A DNA stretch of 64,000 bases from a phage. Positions 32,990 to 45,811 of this stretch are shown here, in pieces; positions within the stretch are counted from its first letter, which is position 1; each line of letters begins with the position of its first letter. The notes below the pieces were generated by a model. It was not told the origin of the DNA, searched no databases, and saw nothing but the letters and a program-made list of their open reading frames with translations. The stretch is from sequence record PX880103.1. The stretch is one strand, 5' to 3'. The position numbers and the translations under genes are program-made.

Positions 32990-33001
32990 AAAGGCCTCCT
33001 A

Positions 33002-33214
33002 TCATTTTTGTCCTGTATTTACTTTATGCCGATGCACGGCCTTAACTTTATCAAGGTATTTTTCAAAATTTCGCAATCTAGTATAGTCTGCCAGAGATTG
33101 GTTGAGTGATACTTCTCGACGCAAAGCTGAAATGATATTTCCAACTTCCCTACGAATTTCATCTAATTGAAGCACAGTAAGATTGCGAAGTTGCTTTTCA
33201 GTTAATTGTAGCAT
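33002..33214 (-). CDS. Hypothetical protein (rI.1-like position)
   Basis: 70 aa ORF between tk and rI. Confidence 0.45.
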
Positions 33215-33242
33215 ATATACCCCTTTAGTTAGATAAACCTAT

Positions 33243-33839
33243 TTATAACTTTTGCACTAACCGAGTTTTTTTAGTTAATTCATTCCAATGTTTTCTACAC
33301 AAAGAAACATAAATTTCATCACCAATACAGATTTGATTACCTTCTTTAACAGGTGTTCCATCTTCCATTAATCGAGCTGTCATAATCGCTTTTTTACCGC
33401 AATGACAAACCGCCTTTAGTTCAATAAGTTTATCTGCAATCGCTAAAAGTTCTTTAGAACCTTCAAACAATTTTCCAGCGAAATCAGTCCTTAATCCATA
33501 AGCCATAACAGGAACATTATATGTATCAACAATTCGGCTCAATTGATGCACTTGTTCAGTTTTTAAAAACTGAGCTTCATCTACAAATACGCAATGAATA
33601 TCTTTTTGTGCTTCAGCCCATTTATAGAACTCGAAAATATCCATATCATCTGTAATAATATTCGCTTCCTGCTTAATTCCAATGCGAGAAACGACTTCAC
33701 AGACAGAATCGCGAGTATCAATAGCAGGCTTAAGAACTAATACACTCATTCCACGTTCTTTATAATTATGTGCAGCAGTCAAAAGAGAAGCAGATTTTCC
33801 AGCATTCATTGCTGCATAAGTAAAAATTAAACTCGCCAT
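33243..33839 (-). CDS. tk: Thymidine kinase
   Basis: 198 aa; P-loop AMNAGKS; zinc-ribbon cysteines; T4 tk synteny. Confidence 0.9.
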   Translation of the reverse strand: MASLIFTYAAMNAGKSASLLTAAHNYKERGMSVLVLKPAIDTRDSVCEVVSRIGIKQEANIITDDMDIFEFYKWAEAQKDIHCVFVDEAQFLKTEQVHQLSRIVDTYNVPVMAYGLRTDFAGKLFEGSKELLAIADKLIELKAVCHCGKKAIMTARLMEDGTPVKEGNQICIGDEIYVSLCRKHWNELTKKTRLVQKL

Positions 33840-33840
33840 C

Positions 33841-34029
33841 TTAGTCCTTAGTTAAATTTTCTAAATATGTTTCTAAATCATTTTCAGCTTTATCGATAGA
33901 TTTTACTAATTCGTAATATGTTTCGGCATCTCCATAATCAGAAGATAATTCAAAAGACAAATCCTTTTCTAAACTAACAATTTCACCAACTAAAAATAAT
34001 ATTTCGTTCTTTTGTTCGCGAGTAATCAT
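33841..34029 (-). CDS. Hypothetical protein (tk.1 position)
   Basis: 62 aa ORF. Confidence 0.4.
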   Translation of the reverse strand: MITREQKNEILFLVGEIVSLEKDLSFELSSDYGDAETYYELVKSIDKAENDLETYLENLTKD

Positions 34030-34217
34030 AAGGAATTTATATAATTAATAAGTTCTTGTTCTTTATTATCGAATTCTTTAGAAAGTTCTTCGTATTCATT
34101 TACGTTAAAAGGACCGCATTCATTACAAACTCTTTCTAATTCACTATTTTTATCCATAACTTCGTGGATAAGAGAAAAGAGTTTGTCTTTTTGTTCTTTA
34201 CTTAAACTCATAACCAT
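34026..34217 (-). CDS. Hypothetical protein (tk.2 position)
   Basis: 63 aa ORF. Confidence 0.4.
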   Translation of the reverse strand: MVMSLSKEQKDKLFSLIHEVMDKNSELERVCNECGPFNVNEYEELSKEFDNKEQELINYINSL

Positions 34218-34435
34218 GTCACCTTTAAGCAGTATTCTTCTACATGCTGTTTACGACCTTTCTTATCAATAAAGGTATATTCAACGAATGTTCCAATGTA
34301 GTCTTTATCTACATCATGTGGACTATTAATTGGACATTTAGTACGGCAAATGCGTTCCCATTGACGAATAATTACTGCCTTATTCTTTGGGTCATATGGA
34401 TGTGGATAATGTATATTCATAATAACGGTTCCCAA
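34208..34435 (-). CDS. Hypothetical protein (tk.3 position)
   Basis: 75 aa ORF. Confidence 0.4.
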   Translation of the reverse strand: MGTVIMNIHYPHPYDPKNKAVIIRQWERICRTKCPINSPHDVDKDYIGTFVEYTFIDKKGRKQHVEEYCLKVTWL

Positions 34436-34884
34436 TCAACAATCACAATTTCTAATTTAGAGGAATACGTATCTAAAATATCTTCAATAATATCCCAGTT
34501 CCCTTTACCTATGCCTGCACCAATCCTAGGCATATAGATTGTAGGTTTAATCAGTTTATTTTCACCAAACTCATTTAATTCTAACATACAATTCATTAAA
34601 GCGGAATACTCAAAATTTGGCCCTGGTTGAAATTGAGTATAAAGGTTGAAGCAATACGCTTTATGAGTCCTAAAGTATTTTTCATAGACTGAGTAAGAAC
34701 CGAGTTTAGTTACATCACCCCATTCAGTCTGTAATTTATCAGCTTCCAAAATTTTAGGGAAAGCTTTGGTTAATTGACCCGCTACGCCTGAACCCATAGT
34801 ATGAAAACAATTGCATCCATGCGCAATATTTTTACCTTCAGCGAAAAGGGCGACAATATCGCCCTTGATATATTTTACAATCAT
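34417..34884 (-). CDS. Macro-domain protein (ADP-ribose binding or processing)
   Basis: HGCNCFHTMGSGVAGQL and MPRIGAGIGKG resemble the two glycine-rich macro-domain motifs; 155 aa. Confidence 0.55.
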   Translation of the reverse strand: MIVKYIKGDIVALFAEGKNIAHGCNCFHTMGSGVAGQLTKAFPKILEADKLQTEWGDVTKLGSYSVYEKYFRTHKAYCFNLYTQFQPGPNFEYSALMNCMLELNEFGENKLIKPTIYMPRIGAGIGKGNWDIIEDILDTYSSKLEIVIVDWEPLL

Positions 34885-35228
34885 CTAGTACTCAATCCTC
34901 GATTATAAGAATCTACCAAACGGTCAACCATTGAATGACAAGCGGCTTTATCTTTCTCCTCCGCAACTGAACATTCTAAAGTATTCCACTTTTTAGCATA
35001 TCGTTTTAACAATGTATAGTTTTTGTATCTGCTTGATTTATCCCTTTCTCCGTCTTTATATGCATATATTAATTTCTGTGCAAATTCAGCTTGGCATGCT
35101 TTATTTTTCCCACAATAATCTGCCGCAGTGCGGTTTACATATTCTCTAATTTCAGTATATGATGTATCTGCTGACGCAGAAGCAGAAAATGAAATTAATC
35201 CTATACATAAAACCAAAATTTTAGTCAT
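34881..35228 (-). CDS. Secreted small protein (vs locus position)
   Basis: 115 aa with N-terminal signal peptide; same size and position as T4 vs. Confidence 0.45.
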   Translation of the reverse strand: MTKILVLCIGLISFSASASADTSYTEIREYVNRTAADYCGKNKACQAEFAQKLIYAYKDGERDKSSRYKNYTLLKRYAKKWNTLECSVAEEKDKAACHSMVDRLVDSYNRGLSTR

Positions 35229-35766
35229 TTACTATTTCCAAAAGTTTATTATTTTTAAGGTAATTAGCCTTTTCTAGGACTTCAGAAGCATATTTAGAAC
35301 CTGCTTTAACATTCCATCCCGAATTATAAGAGGATATTGCTTTTCTTATATCGCCCTTATGTATATTTAACCAATAAGAAAGTTCAATGTACGCCCAGGA
35401 AGCTGAATTGGATCGTTTATTCAACATTCTTTTTATTTCAGCATCGGTCATATTATAACCAAGTTCCTTAACTCTTGCTCGCATAGTAGGCAAATAATTT
35501 TGGAACATTCCGTAGGCGTGATGCTTTGGTTTAGATTTTAAATTAACTCCGCCAGAGCTTTCTTGCCATAAAATGGCTGCCATTATATGACCTAATCCGC
35601 TCTTGTGGATATTTTTATGTGTTTTATATTTTCCATCCTTAGAAAATTGTTCCCCGAATTGATACGCGTAACGCATGTTATCGAGTTGGACATTACTGAA
35701 AGTATGCTCGGAGCTATGTGCCATCATTGAAATGGCCAATAGACCAGCGAGTAGTGCTTTTCTCAT
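35221..35766 (-). CDS. Secreted lytic transglycosylase-like protein (lysozyme-like fold)
   Basis: Signal peptide; LWQESSGG resembles the SLT catalytic ES-G motif; 181 aa. Confidence 0.55.
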   Translation of the reverse strand: MRKALLAGLLAISMMAHSSEHTFSNVQLDNMRYAYQFGEQFSKDGKYKTHKNIHKSGLGHIMAAILWQESSGGVNLKSKPKHHAYGMFQNYLPTMRARVKELGYNMTDAEIKRMLNKRSNSASWAYIELSYWLNIHKGDIRKAISSYNSGWNVKAGSKYASEVLEKANYLKNNKLLEIVND

Positions 35767-35773
35767 GCTTACC

Positions 35774-36235
35774 TCATTGAGTTTTAATTACTGCTTTAGA
35801 AGCCTTTCCTGGTAAACGACGACTGTTAATAATTGCCATCCTACATTGAAGTGACGGGTCTTTGAACTTCTCGTTAGGTTTACAAACTGTAAATCCGAGC
35901 CAAAGATTTCCATCTGTGATTTCTAAACGTCCAGGACGATATTCAACCCCATCAATAAAATCCTCGTCAATGTCAGGACGCGGAGGCATACTCAGGAATT
36001 CATTAACTTCTAAAACATGGTCTTTTATTTTATGGAATAATTCAAAAACGTATGTCTCATCAATCTCCCGTTGAATTGCACGATCAAGAAGATGTTGAGA
36101 ATATTTTAGATGAAACGATGAGACCCCTGCTGCTTTTGATGCCTCACGAATCTCATTGTTAATTTGACGAAACTCCGACTCAAAGTGACGACGAAGCTTA
36201 TTTCGACGGATAAAAACTTCAGTGTTGATAGTCAT
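35774..36235 (-). CDS. regB: Endoribonuclease RegB
   Basis: 153 aa matching T4 RegB as remembered. Confidence 0.85.
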   Translation of the reverse strand: MTINTEVFIRRNKLRRHFESEFRQINNEIREASKAAGVSSFHLKYSQHLLDRAIQREIDETYVFELFHKIKDHVLEVNEFLSMPPRPDIDEDFIDGVEYRPGRLEITDGNLWLGFTVCKPNEKFKDPSLQCRMAIINSRRLPGKASKAVIKTQ

Positions 36236-36260
36236 GTTATTCTCCTCTTAACTGATAGAA

Positions 36261-36294
36261 AAATTATACCACAGTCAAGAGGAAAAGTAAACAG
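36261..36294 (-). promoter_or_regulatory. Early promoter
   Basis: Minus strand CTGTTTACTTTTCCTCTTGACTGTGGTATAATTT, upstream of regB. Confidence 0.55.
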
Positions 36295-36573
36295 TTATTC
36301 TTTAAATCTAATCAATTTATTCATAGACTTTGAAACTTCTGCACGGACCTCATGTAGGTTTTTAAGTTGTTCAAGACGTTGCTCATAGTAAGCAATTTCA
36401 TCTTCTTCGAGACAGTCCTGCGAATCTTCTTTAAGATACCGTGCATAGTCCTGGAAAGCGTTACGGACTACTTCCTGGAAGTCATCAAGACTTTGAATTT
36501 TCTTAGGAGCAACAGATACACGACGAGGGGCAGTATAATACTCGTAACCAAACCCTGCGCTTAATTGAGCCAT
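36295..36573 (-). CDS. Hypothetical protein (vs.3 position)
   Basis: Start set at internal Met MAQLSAG. Confidence 0.4.
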
Positions 36574-39904: not shown

Positions 39905-40873
<969 letters not shown>

Positions 40874-40892
<19 letters not shown>

Positions 40893-44601: not shown

Positions 44602-44677
44602 TGGTCGAGGCAGTAGGGATCGAACCTACGACCTAGGACTTAGAAGGTCCTTGCTCTTCCTTCTGAGCTATGCCTCG
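44602..44677 (-). tRNA. tRNA-Arg (anticodon UCU)
   Basis: Hand fold: 7 bp acceptor CGAGGCA/UGCCUCG, anticodon loop CUUCUAA, T-loop UUCGAUC, encoded CCA; 76 nt. Confidence 0.85.
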
Positions 44678-44681
44678 GATT

Positions 44682-44756
44682 TGGCGGACGTGATAGGATT
44701 CGAACCTATAACCAATCGCTTAACAGGCGATCGCTCTGCCATTGAGCTACACATCC
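44682..44756 (-). tRNA. tRNA-Asn (anticodon GUU)
   Basis: Hand fold: acceptor GGAUGUG/CACGUCC, anticodon stem AUCGC/GCGAU with loop CUGUUAA, T-loop UUCGAAU, encoded CCA; 75 nt. Confidence 0.75.
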
Positions 44757-44760
44757 AAAT

Positions 44761-44847
44761 TGGTGGGGAGTGATGGAGTCGAACCACCCGAGTCGCAATG
44801 ACAATGGATTTACAGTCCACACCGCTACCTCTACGGGATAACTCCCC
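44761..44847 (-). tRNA. tRNA-Tyr (anticodon GUA), class II with long variable arm
   Basis: Acceptor GGGGAGU/ACUCCCC, anticodon loop CUGUAAA, variable arm resembles bacterial tRNA-Tyr, encoded CCA; 87 nt. Confidence 0.75.
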
Positions 44848-44856
44848 AAATTAATT

Positions 44857-44931
44857 TGGTGGCCCTGGGTGGAATTGAACCACCATCTGGCGATTATGAG
44901 TCGCTTGCTTGAACCTTCCAGCTACAGGGCC
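44857..44931 (-). tRNA. tRNA with anticodon CAU (Met, or Ile if lysidine-modified)
   Basis: Acceptor GGCCCUG/CAGGGCC, anticodon loop CUCAUAA, T-loop UUCAAUU, encoded CCA; 75 nt. Confidence 0.8.
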
Positions 44932-44939
44932 AAATTTTC

Positions 44940-45425
44940 TTATTTTATGTAATATTTATTTAAAAACTTTCTAGCTTGAGTATGGCTAACATTTATAGCG
45001 TTTGCATAATTTTTAATAAAACCTCGTTCATCCATATTAAAATTTTCTAATATTTTTAATCGTCTAGTTATCTCATCTTGACTTAAGGTACTTGCATTAT
45101 TTTTAGAAATTTTTTCTAAGGACTGTGCCGAGTGTTTTCGACCATTAAAATTAAAATTTTTAGATTTTGGAGGAAATCTAGCATTTAATCTCGCATCTTT
45201 TGTATTTTGATTATTAGTTGCGCAATATATGTTATTTAATGAATATGGTCCTTTATCGCCGAAACGGCACATGCAGTATTCATGACCCTTTCTTCCACGC
45301 TTATCATAATTTCCCGTTGATTTCCACCAATGCAACCATTCATCAAAAGTTAAATTCCATTCAATGTTTCTACGTATAGCAGAATTCCGCTGAGAAATAT
45401 ATTTTGCATAATCTTCTTTCATCAC
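44940..45425 (-). CDS. Putative HNH-family homing endonuclease-like protein embedded in the tRNA cluster
   Basis: 161 aa; GHEYCMCRFGDKGPYSLNNIYCATNNQN cysteine/Asn-rich nuclease-like core plus C-terminal helix-turn-helix-like tail; free-standing between tRNA sub-clusters. Confidence 0.45.
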   Translation of the reverse strand: MMKEDYAKYISQRNSAIRRNIEWNLTFDEWLHWWKSTGNYDKRGRKGHEYCMCRFGDKGPYSLNNIYCATNNQNTKDARLNARFPPKSKNFNFNGRKHSAQSLEKISKNNASTLSQDEITRRLKILENFNMDERGFIKNYANAINVSHTQARKFLNKYYIK

Positions 45426-45469
45426 AAATTTCTCTACTTATTCAATACACTGAGCTAAATCAGCAAAAC

Positions 45470-45559
45470 TGGCGGAGGCGATAGGATTTGAACCTATGAG
45501 TCGCCGGAGCGACTGCCGGTTTTCAAGACCGGTGCATTAAACCACTCTGCCACGCCTCC
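45470..45559 (-). tRNA. tRNA-Ser (anticodon UGA), class II
   Basis: Acceptor GGAGGCG/CGCCUCC, anticodon stem CCGGU/ACCGG with loop CUUGAAA, long variable arm, encoded CCA; 90 nt. Confidence 0.85.
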
Positions 45560-45561
45560 AG

Positions 45562-45635
45562 TCTCCGTGGCAGGATTTGAACCTACGACATTCTGCTCCC
45601 AAAGCAGACGCTCTACCAAACTGAGCTACACGGAG
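45562..45635 (-). tRNA. tRNA-Pro (anticodon UGG), CCA not encoded
   Basis: Acceptor CUCCGUG/CACGGAG, anticodon stem UCUGC/GCAGA with loop UUUGGGA, T-loop UUCAAAU; 74 nt. Confidence 0.8.
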
Positions 45636-45645
45636 TAAATTAAAT

Positions 45646-45719
<74 letters not shown>

Positions 45720-45724
45720 AAATT

Positions 45725-45811
45725 TGGTGCGAGAAGTGGGACTCGAACCCACAAGGAAATCATTCCGCAGCATTTTAAGTGCTGTGCCTTTACCAATTTG
45801 ACCATTCTCGC
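45725..45811 (-). tRNA. tRNA-Leu (anticodon UAA), class II
   Basis: Sequence GCGAGAAUGGUCAAAUUGGUAAAGGCACAGCACUUAAAAUGCUG...CACUUCUCGCACCA; matches T4 tRNA-Leu as remembered; 87 nt. Confidence 0.85.

What the first reader, a model, noticed from the sequence alone, without database searches (positions are those of the whole stretch)
34417..34884. Macro-domain protein in the tk-to-regB early gene cluster
The 155 aa protein carries both glycine-rich macro-domain motifs (HGCNCFHTMGSGVAGQL and MPRIGAGIGKG). Macro domains bind or hydrolyse ADP-ribose derivatives. In a phage this could reverse host ADP-ribosylation-based defence or remove NAD-derived immune signals.
Basis: partly seen in the sequence, partly recalled or inferred. 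Interest (0 to 1): 0.5.

Follow-up and report, generated by a model that had tools for sequence, protein, structure and literature searches.

The report
T4 Tk.4/AdfM anti-DarT2 macrodomain gene
This is the T-even phage gene tk.4, a small macrodomain enzyme already shown genetically in phage T4 to protect against the bacterial DarTG2 defence, which blocks phage replication by attaching ADP-ribose to DNA; the finding is real but already known.

Summary
The ORF is real: 34417..34884, minus strand, 155 aa, with both quoted motifs. The window is a T4-like phage (Tequatrovirus). The protein is 154/155 identical to T4 Tk.4 and 100% identical to RB14 Tk.4.

A 2025 preprint (HIDEN-SEQ) found tk.4 as the only T4 transposon hit under DarTG2. 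A clean knockout sensitised T4 to DarTG2, and the authors named the gene adfM. The "immune signal" idea remains untested.

What this analysis adds:
- Tk.4 is not a DarG-type enzyme. The catalytic lysine of DarG and TARG1 is an invariant Gln84 (motif N-x-Y-T-Q, 200/200 relatives), as in Streptomyces SCO6735. SCO6735 cleaves thymidine-ADP-ribose on DNA without a lysine.
- PhiKZ "AdfM" (gp104) is a different, lysine-bearing DarG-type protein.
- Bacterial relatives are stand-alone ~150-aa genes with no adjacent DarT.

Enzymatic activity of Tk.4 itself has not been shown. Novelty: already known. Interest: low.

The parts
34417..34884 (-). tk.4 / adfM coding sequence, 155-aa single macrodomain protein
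   Evidence: ORF. 154/155 identical to T4 Tk.4. Pfam Macro. AF2 pLDDT 94.9. Fold matches to TARG1, Poa1p, BT1257 and DarG.
34771..34821 (-). Residues 22-38, HGCNCFHTMGSGVAGQL: macrodomain loop 1 with near-invariant H22, G23, N25, C26, G33, A35. N25 aligns with TaqDarG N22 and PhiKZ gp104 N23.
   Evidence: Translation. Conservation. Alignment A2. DarG N22A and gp104 N23A reduce activity.
34633..34647 (-). Residues 80-84, NLYTQ: Q84 occupies the position of the catalytic Lys of TARG1 (K84) and DarG (K80). The motif is invariant in the family.
   Evidence: Profile alignment to TARG1. MAFFT A2. Q84 in 200/200 relatives. SCO6735 Gln85 precedent.
34501..34533 (-). Residues 118-128, MPRIGAGIGKG: glycine-rich loop 2 (diphosphate/distal-ribose loop). 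G126 sits where TARG1 has D125.
   Evidence: Translation. Alignments. DarG G117/G119/G121 contact ADPr.
34881..34884 (-). ATGA overlap: the vs stop codon overlaps the tk.4 start codon, suggesting translational coupling. SD-like GAGGA/GAG lies upstream.
   Evidence: Read from sequence.
34417..34420 (-). ATGA overlap: the tk.4 stop codon overlaps the tk.3 start codon.
   Evidence: Read from sequence. T4 annotation of tk.3.
36263..36291 (-). Sigma-70-like promoter (TTTACT-17-TATAAT with TG) just upstream of regB. It is the likely early promoter of the regB-vs.1-vs-tk.4-tk.3-tk.2-tk.1-tk unit (tentative).
   Evidence: Consensus scan only. The number of sites in the region is not above shuffles.

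Best explanation
The ORF is the T-even phage early gene tk.4 (adfM). It encodes a stand-alone macrodomain of the ALC1/TARG1-like class that protects the phage from the host DarTG2 toxin-antitoxin defence. On infection, DarT2 uses NAD+ to ADP-ribosylate thymidines in single-stranded phage DNA and so blocks replication. Tk.4, made early from the regB-tk transcription unit, most likely binds the ADP-ribose through its two glycine-rich loops and hydrolyses the thymine-ribose bond, restoring normal DNA and releasing free ADP-ribose. Unlike DarG and TARG1 it has no catalytic lysine. An invariant Gln84 (N-x-Y-T-Q) sits there, as in Streptomyces SCO6735, so catalysis is probably water-mediated, with Gln84 and Asn25 positioning the distal ribose.

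Shown: gene identity, macro fold, active-site make-up, and (in the literature, for the 99%-identical T4 protein) the anti-DarTG2 phenotype.

Inferred: hydrolase activity, the substrate (T-ADPr on ssDNA), the Gln-type mechanism and early expression.
For: Identity:
- 154/155 identical to T4 Tk.4, 100% to RB14 Tk.4, same synteny.

Fold:
- Pfam Macro above cut-off.
- AF2 pLDDT 94.9, pTM 0.90.
- Foldseek top hits are TARG1, Poa1p, BT1257 and DarG, E 4e-10 to 1e-7.
- The PADLOC DarG model matches its macro part, E=5.7e-10.

Function:
- tk.4 is the single significant HIDEN-SEQ hit with DarTG2, and a clean knockout sensitises T4.
- T4 lacking adfA and adfN stays DarTG2-resistant, which pointed to another factor.
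- A DarG macrodomain alone suffices as antitoxin.

Mechanism:
- Q84 aligns with TARG1 K84 and DarG K80 and is invariant in 200/200 relatives.
- SCO6735 has Gln85 at that position, cleaves thymidine-ADPr DNA, protects from DarT, and Q85A is dead.
- H22, N25 and both Gly loops are conserved, as expected for an active enzyme.
- TNTC motifs are not depleted in the window, 2394 against 2376 expected. This is consistent with reliance on an eraser.
Against: - No biochemical assay of Tk.4 exists in the held literature. The anti-DarTG2 result is a preprint with one DarTG2 system at 30 C in minimal medium.
- The canonical catalytic Lys, and the Asp of TARG1, are missing. Activity therefore cannot simply be transferred from DarG.
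- Catalytically dead SCO6735 still inhibits DarT in vitro, so a non-catalytic contribution is possible.
- Residue-level alignment to SCO6735 itself could not be obtained. The equivalence is transitive through TARG1 and DarG.
- T-even DNA carries glucosyl-hydroxymethyl-C (background knowledge). How DarT2 recognises its motif there is unknown.
Confidence: 0.75

Rival explanations
1. Tk.4 neutralises DarT2 mainly without catalysis. It would either bind and mask ADP-ribosylated DNA or inhibit DarT2 directly, and hydrolysis would be dispensable.
For: The canonical catalytic Lys is absent. Catalytically inactive SCO6735 Q85A inhibits DarT in vitro more strongly than DarG K80A or TARG1 K84A.
Against: - Tk.4 lacks the C-terminal DarT-binding domain of DarG. 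It matches only positions 2-147 of the 338-position DarG model, 31 bits against a cut-off of 250.
- DarG-macro K80A alone does not inhibit DarT.
- H22, N25, Q84 and both loops are invariant in bacteria and phages, which fits an enzyme.
- Masking DNA lesions stoichiometrically would not restore replication.
Confidence: 0.1
2. Tk.4 is primarily a small-molecule or protein ADP-ribose enzyme: an ADP-ribose-1''-phosphate phosphatase (Poa1p-like, the source of the 'phosphatase' annotation), an O-acetyl-ADP-ribose deacetylase, or an eraser of protein ADP-ribosylation, including that made by the phage's own Alt/ModA/ModB. Anti-DarT2 activity would be a side effect.
For: Poa1p is among the top structural and sequence matches. 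Databases annotate the family as phosphatase or OAADPr deacetylase. SCO6735 and TARG1 also act on Glu/Asp-linked protein ADPr.
Against: - The only phenotype found in a genome-wide screen is DarTG2-specific, and the gene is dispensable on K-12.
- Poa1p F152 is not conserved: Tk.4 has G126 there.
- T4 ARTs modify arginine, which ALC1-class macrodomains are not known to reverse (background knowledge).
- No Tpt1-type source of Appr-1''-p is known in T4 (background knowledge).
Confidence: 0.1
3. Tk.4 degrades or sequesters NAD-derived immune signalling molecules such as Thoeris gcADPR or His-ADPR.
Against: There are no data. The closest structural class is the TARG1/DarG/Poa1p hydrolases, not signal-binding macro domains. 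Thoeris was not among the conditions reported in the HIDEN-SEQ screen.
Confidence: 0.03

Closest known systems
Phage T4 Tk.4 = AdfM (anti-DarT factor Macrodomain), bioRxiv 10.1101/2025.11.20.689424
   Same: 154/155 residues identical. Same position between vs and tk.3. Same length and motifs.
   Different: One substitution, D135 here against G135 in T4. The window is a different, mosaic Tequatrovirus.
Streptomyces coelicolor SCO6735 (PDB 5E3B), a lysine-less ALC1-class macrodomain that cleaves thymidine-linked ADPr on ssDNA
   Same: Stand-alone macrodomain. Sequence homologue: E=2.4e-4 with the single sequence and 2.4e-13 with the profile. Gln at the position of the DarG/TARG1 catalytic Lys, and neither Lys nor Asp of the TARG1 dyad. 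Protects against DarT although not encoded next to it.
   Different: It is a cellular gene inducible by DNA damage, not a phage gene. It is no closer to Tk.4 than TARG1, Poa1p or BT1257 are. Residue-level alignment was not obtained here.
DarG antitoxin macrodomain (Thermus aquaticus 5M31/5M3E, M. tuberculosis 5M3I)
   Different: Catalytic K80 is replaced by Q84. There is no C-terminal DarT-binding domain and no DarT partner gene. Sequence similarity is weak, E about 3e-4 with the single sequence.
PhiKZ gp104 'AdfM' (Cell Rep 2026, PMC13309987)
   Same: Phage-encoded single macrodomain that counters DarTG2. It was given the same name independently.
   Different: gp104 is a true DarG-type protein: E=9.4e-25 to Mtb DarG and it keeps the FPTK lysine. 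It is only 20% identical to Tk.4, pairwise E=0.047. It is biochemically proven and found in 276 phage records, mostly jumbo phages, against 2768 for the Tk.4 type.
Human TARG1/OARD1 and yeast Poa1p; Bacteroides BT1257 (2FG1/2AFC)
   Same: Best structural and sequence matches. BT1257 shares the N-x-x-x-Q arrangement.
   Different: TARG1 uses the K84/D125 dyad, which is Q84/G126 here. Poa1p is an Appr-1''-p phosphatase whose F152 is not conserved. BT1257 has no known function.

Membership tests
Macro domain (Pfam PF01661) | Profile match above the curated gathering score | tested here: met
   28.4 bits against a cut-off of 22, residues 22-136 on profile positions 2-117 of 118.
Macro domain (Pfam PF01661) | Three-layer alpha/beta/alpha macro fold | tested here: met
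ALC1/TARG1-like macrodomain class | Closest structural neighbours are TARG1, DarG and Poa1p rather than MacroD, PARG or macroH2A types | tested here: met
T4 Tk.4 / AdfM orthologue group | High identity to T4 Tk.4 and conserved vs-tk.4-tk.3 synteny | tested here: met
   99% identity. Synteny confirmed.
T4 Tk.4 / AdfM orthologue group | Loss of the gene sensitises the phage to DarTG2 | not testable with these tools
   Reported for T4 in a preprint. Not tested for this phage.
DarG antitoxin (NCBIfam NF048014, PADLOC DarG) | Full-length match including the C-terminal DarT-binding domain | tested here: not met
   31.4 bits against a cut-off of 250. Only profile positions 2-147 of 338 match, and 2-145 of 329 in PADLOC. 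The protein is 155 aa.
DarG antitoxin (NCBIfam NF048014, PADLOC DarG) | Catalytic lysine (TaqDarG K80) in the P-T-K motif | tested here: not met
   Q84 aligns with K80 of DarG and K84 of TARG1. Gln is present in 200/200 relatives.
DarG antitoxin (NCBIfam NF048014, PADLOC DarG) | Encoded next to a DarT toxin gene | tested here: not met
   No DarT2-like sequence in the window or beside 80 bacterial homologues. No recurrent neighbour family. The test is of limited sensitivity because it used a single DarT2 query.
SCO6735-type lysine-independent DNA-ADPr hydrolases | Gln at the position of the TARG1/DarG catalytic Lys, and no Asp125 equivalent | tested here: met
   Q84 and G126. The equivalence to SCO6735 Gln85 is transitive, through the paper's own statement.
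SCO6735-type lysine-independent DNA-ADPr hydrolases | Hydrolysis of thymidine-linked ADP-ribose on ssDNA | not testable with these tools
   Needs an enzyme assay. Only the T4 genetics is available.
Poa1p-type ADP-ribose-1''-phosphate phosphatase (the 'phosphatase' annotation, PHROG 335) | Poa1p residues probed by mutation (H23, S30, F152) | tested here: inconclusive
   H22 matches H23 and T29 aligns with S30, but F152 is G126 here. The PHROG 335 label is an annotation, not a tested function.

The most novel reading that the evidence does not exclude
Tk.4-type macrodomains would be a distinct, lysine-independent (Gln-type) lineage of nucleic-acid ADP-ribose erasers. Phages would have recruited them from stand-alone bacterial repair-type enzymes (SCO6735/BT1257-like) rather than from the DarG antitoxin. 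They are about ten times more common in sequenced phages than the DarG-type 'AdfM'. Like SCO6735 and TARG1 they might have a broader substrate range (Asp/Glu-protein ADPr, uridine-ADPr RNA), so they could disarm ADP-ribosyltransferase defences beyond DarTG2.
Probability: 0.35. Interest if true: 0.45.

Novelty: already known. Interest (0 to 1): 0.2.

Why it matters
The gene shows how T-even phages layer erasers against DNA ADP-ribosylation: AdfN/30.3 against guanine-modifying DarT1 and AdfM/Tk.4 against thymine-modifying DarT2. That is already in the literature.

The useful residue of this analysis is a caution and a testable point. Two unrelated-in-detail proteins now share the name AdfM. The T4-type one lacks the DarG/TARG1 catalytic lysine, so its presumed hydrolase activity should be demonstrated rather than assumed. 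Q84, N25, H22 and the family-specific invariant D49 are obvious mutagenesis targets.

The family is present in about 5% of sequenced phage genomes. Its true substrate range therefore bears on phage host-range prediction and phage-therapy design.

Tried and rejected

2. Search for a DarT partner or any conserved neighbour of bacterial homologues. All-against-all clustering of ORFs within 2.5 kb in 80 genomes gave only lineage-specific housekeeping synteny: ArgC-like, M23 peptidase, ABC transporter, SecA, IleRS. Each occurred in at most 10 of the 80 loci. phmmer and tblastn with P. aeruginosa DarT2 found nothing. The idea that Tk.4 derives from an operonic DarG antitoxin was rejected, with the caveat of single-query sensitivity.

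3. Direct Tk.4 against PhiKZ gp104 comparison. The pair is only 20% identical, E=0.047. "Same family as PhiKZ AdfM" was rejected below the class level.

4. mRNA structure around the start codon. The fold z-score is -1.36, not significant.

5. Avoidance of the DarT2 motif. TNTC is not depleted.

6. A strict Nudix-box regular expression found nothing. Pfam then identified the Nudix gene.

7. Overlapping plus-strand ORFs (34244..34537 and 34801..34908) were treated as shadows of the conserved minus-strand genes, without a separate test.

8. Searches (term too short; query one base too long) were tool errors.

Full report
**Observation**

The window carries an ORF at 34417..34884 on the minus strand. 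It has an ATG start and a TGA stop and encodes 155 aa.
HGCNCFHTMGSGVAGQL is residues 22-38 (nt 34771-34821) and MPRIGAGIGKG is residues 118-128 (nt 34501-34533).
- The start codon overlaps the stop of the upstream gene vs (ATGA at 34881-34884). The stop overlaps the start of tk.3 (ATGA at 34417-34420).
- The gene is therefore embedded in a tightly packed, co-oriented block.
- The neighbours are thymidine kinase, two DUF7438 paralogues (tk.1, tk.2), DUF7202 (tk.3), Vs, an SLT-domain protein (vs.1) and RegB.
- A sigma-70-like site with an extended -10 lies just upstream of regB (36291..36263, minus strand). This is a consensus match only.

**Where it comes from**

- Megablast places the region in Tequatrovirus: 660 phage records match, with T4 collinear at 98.3%.
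- Over 25 kb the best record covers 94% at 96.8% identity, so the window is a mosaic T-even phage.
- The protein is 154/155 identical to T4 Tk.4, differing by D135 here against G135 in T4. It is 100% identical to RB14 Tk.4.

**What the protein is**

- Pfam Macro matches above its gathering score: 28.4 bits against 22, covering 116 of the 118 profile positions.
- PHROG 335 ("phosphatase") matches at E=6.8e-66.
- The PADLOC and NCBIfam DarG models match only through their N-terminal macro part. NCBIfam gives 31 bits against a cut-off of 250.
- An AlphaFold2 model built on 45 homologues has mean pLDDT 94.9 and pTM 0.90.
- Foldseek against the PDB returns TARG1, Poa1p, BT1257 and the DarG macrodomains first, with E from 4e-10 to 1e-7 and TM 0.70-0.80.
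- The protein is thus a single-domain member of the ALC1/TARG1-like macrodomain class.

**What is already known**

- The HIDEN-SEQ preprint (bioRxiv 10.1101/2025.11.20.689424) reports that tk.4 was the single significant hit when a T4 transposon library infected E. coli expressing DarTG2.
- In the same preprint, a clean tk.4 knockout sensitised T4 to DarTG2. The authors named the gene adfM (anti-DarT factor Macrodomain).
- They state that enzymatic removal of ADP-ribose from DNA "seems likely". No biochemistry is given.
- This fits earlier work showing that T4 lacking adfA and adfN (30.3, a NADAR enzyme against guanine-modifying DarT1) remained resistant to DarTG2.
- No other paper in the held library links Tk.4 to a function.
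- The second hypothesis, destruction of NAD-derived immune signals, has no supporting or opposing data.

**How it most likely works, and what is new here**

DarG and TARG1 depend on a catalytic lysine, TaqDarG K80 and TARG1 K84. K80A is inactive and fails to rescue DarT toxicity.

Active-site comparison:
- In a profile alignment to TARG1 and in a MAFFT alignment with TARG1, two DarG macrodomains, BT1257 and PhiKZ gp104, the Tk.4 motif N80-L-Y-T83-Q84 aligns with I-T-K84 of TARG1 and P-T-K of DarG and gp104.
- Tk.4 G126 aligns with TARG1 D125. Tk.4 therefore has neither residue of the TARG1 dyad.
- Gln84 is invariant in 200 of 200 relatives examined: 80 bacterial genome loci and 120 metagenomic proteins.
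- H22, G23, N25, C26, G33, A35, D49, N80 and Y82 are invariant or nearly so in the same set.

Precedent from SCO6735:
- Streptomyces coelicolor SCO6735 (PDB 5E3B) is a detectable homologue of Tk.4.
- It lacks the Lys and Asp and carries Gln85 at the lysine position.
- It nevertheless efficiently removes thymidine-linked ADP-ribose from ssDNA and protects cells from DarT.
- It loses all activity as Q85A. A water-mediated mechanism has been proposed (PMC9411070).

I therefore propose that Tk.4 is a Gln-type, lysine-independent thymidine-ADP-ribose glycohydrolase.
- N25 is equivalent to DarG N22 and gp104 N23, both of which are important for activity.
- N25 and Q84 would position the distal ribose. 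The two glycine-rich loops would hold the diphosphate.
- The macrodomain of DarG alone is sufficient as an antitoxin, so a 155-aa macrodomain is a plausible complete counter-defence.
- The steps from fold to hydrolysis are inferred, not shown.

**Two different proteins called AdfM**

- PhiKZ gp104 was independently named AdfM. It was shown biochemically to remove DarT2-made ADP-ribose from TNTC DNA (PMC13309987).
- gp104 is a genuine DarG-type macrodomain. It matches Mtb DarG at E=9.4e-25 and keeps the FPTK lysine.
- It is only 20% identical to Tk.4, with a pairwise E-value of 0.047.
- gp104 relatives occur in 276 phage records, mostly jumbo phages.
- Tk.4 relatives occur in 2768 of 50,697 phage records. 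These span T4-like phages and many other large phages of Escherichia, Klebsiella, Salmonella, Pseudomonas, Vibrio, Acinetobacter and Aeromonas.

**Origin**

- At least 518 stretches in bacterial genomes encode relatives. They come from Rhodobacteraceae, Desulfobacterales, Verrucomicrobia, Bacteroidota, cyanobacteria and other groups.
- In the 80 loci fetched, the gene is almost always a stand-alone ORF of about 150 aa.
- Its neighbours are lineage-specific housekeeping genes, and no family recurs in more than 10 of the 80 loci.
- No DarT2-like ORF lies nearby. This test used a single query, so its sensitivity is limited.
- The pattern argues that the Tk.4 lineage was recruited from free-standing cellular erasers such as SCO6735, not from an operonic DarG antitoxin.

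**Rivals**

- Non-catalytic neutralisation is possible, because dead SCO6735 inhibits DarT in vitro. It is disfavoured by the absence of a DarT-binding domain and by active-site conservation.
- A small-molecule or protein-ADPr role would explain the "phosphatase" and "OAADPr deacetylase" annotations. It is not supported by the only phenotype known. Poa1p F152 is not conserved.
- T4 carrying tk.4 is still restricted by the mRNA ADP-ribosyltransferase CmdTAC. Tk.4 is therefore not a universal eraser.

**Verdict**

The finding is already known at the level of gene, fold and biological role. The residual open points are the unproven enzymology and the lysine-less active site, so interest is low (0.2).

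Noticed in passing
window 44602-45811 (minus strand): A cluster of eight tRNA genes: Arg(tct), Asn(gtt), Tyr(gta), Met/Ile(cat), Ser(tga), Pro(tgg), Gly(tcc), Leu(taa). From memory, T4 itself has Thr and Gln instead of Asn and Tyr, so the tRNA set of this T-even phage differs.
   Followed up: no
window 40437-40892 (minus strand): A NUDIX-domain protein at the position of T4 e.1/NudE, next to lysozyme e, Pfam E=1.3e-13. NudE is reported to use ADP-ribose as a substrate. It could dispose of the ADP-ribose released by Tk.4. This link is speculative.
   Followed up: partly
window 34881-35228 and 35221-35766 (minus strand): Vs (the 'valyl-tRNA synthetase modifier') and Vs.1 (SLT transglycosylase domain) both begin with signal-peptide-like N-termini: MTKILVLCIGLISFSASASA/D and MRKALLAGLLAISMMAHS/S. 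That is unexpected for a protein said to modify a cytoplasmic synthetase. The HIDEN-SEQ preprint reports vs as the most depleted gene in minimal medium.
   Followed up: no
window 34846-34866: A perfect palindromic hairpin (AAGGGCGA-N5-TCGCCCTT) lies inside codons 7-13 of tk.4 and is followed by T-runs. The scan flagged it as terminator-like on the plus strand. It also forms in the sense mRNA, but the overall fold is not significant, z=-1.36.
   Followed up: partly
window 33841-34217 (minus strand): tk.1 and tk.2 are tandem 62-63-aa paralogues of DUF7438 / PHROG 653. T4 has two further PHROG 653 copies about 2 kb away in locus L001. Their function is unknown.
   Followed up: no
window 33000-36500 and 22001-47000: The window is a mosaic Tequatrovirus. 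RB14 has about 372 bp extra within 33000-36500 although its Tk.4 is identical. The best 25-kb match, phage VEc74, covers 94% at 96.8% in six pieces.
   Followed up: partly
whole window: The DarT2 target motif TNTC occurs 2394 times on both strands, against 2376 expected from base composition. There is no motif avoidance.
   Followed up: yes
Tk.4 residue 49 (nt 34738-34740): Asp49 is invariant in the Tk.4 family: 80/80 bacterial and 119/120 metagenomic relatives. It is not conserved in DarG, TARG1 or BT1257. It is a candidate family-specific catalytic or structural residue.
   Followed up: partly
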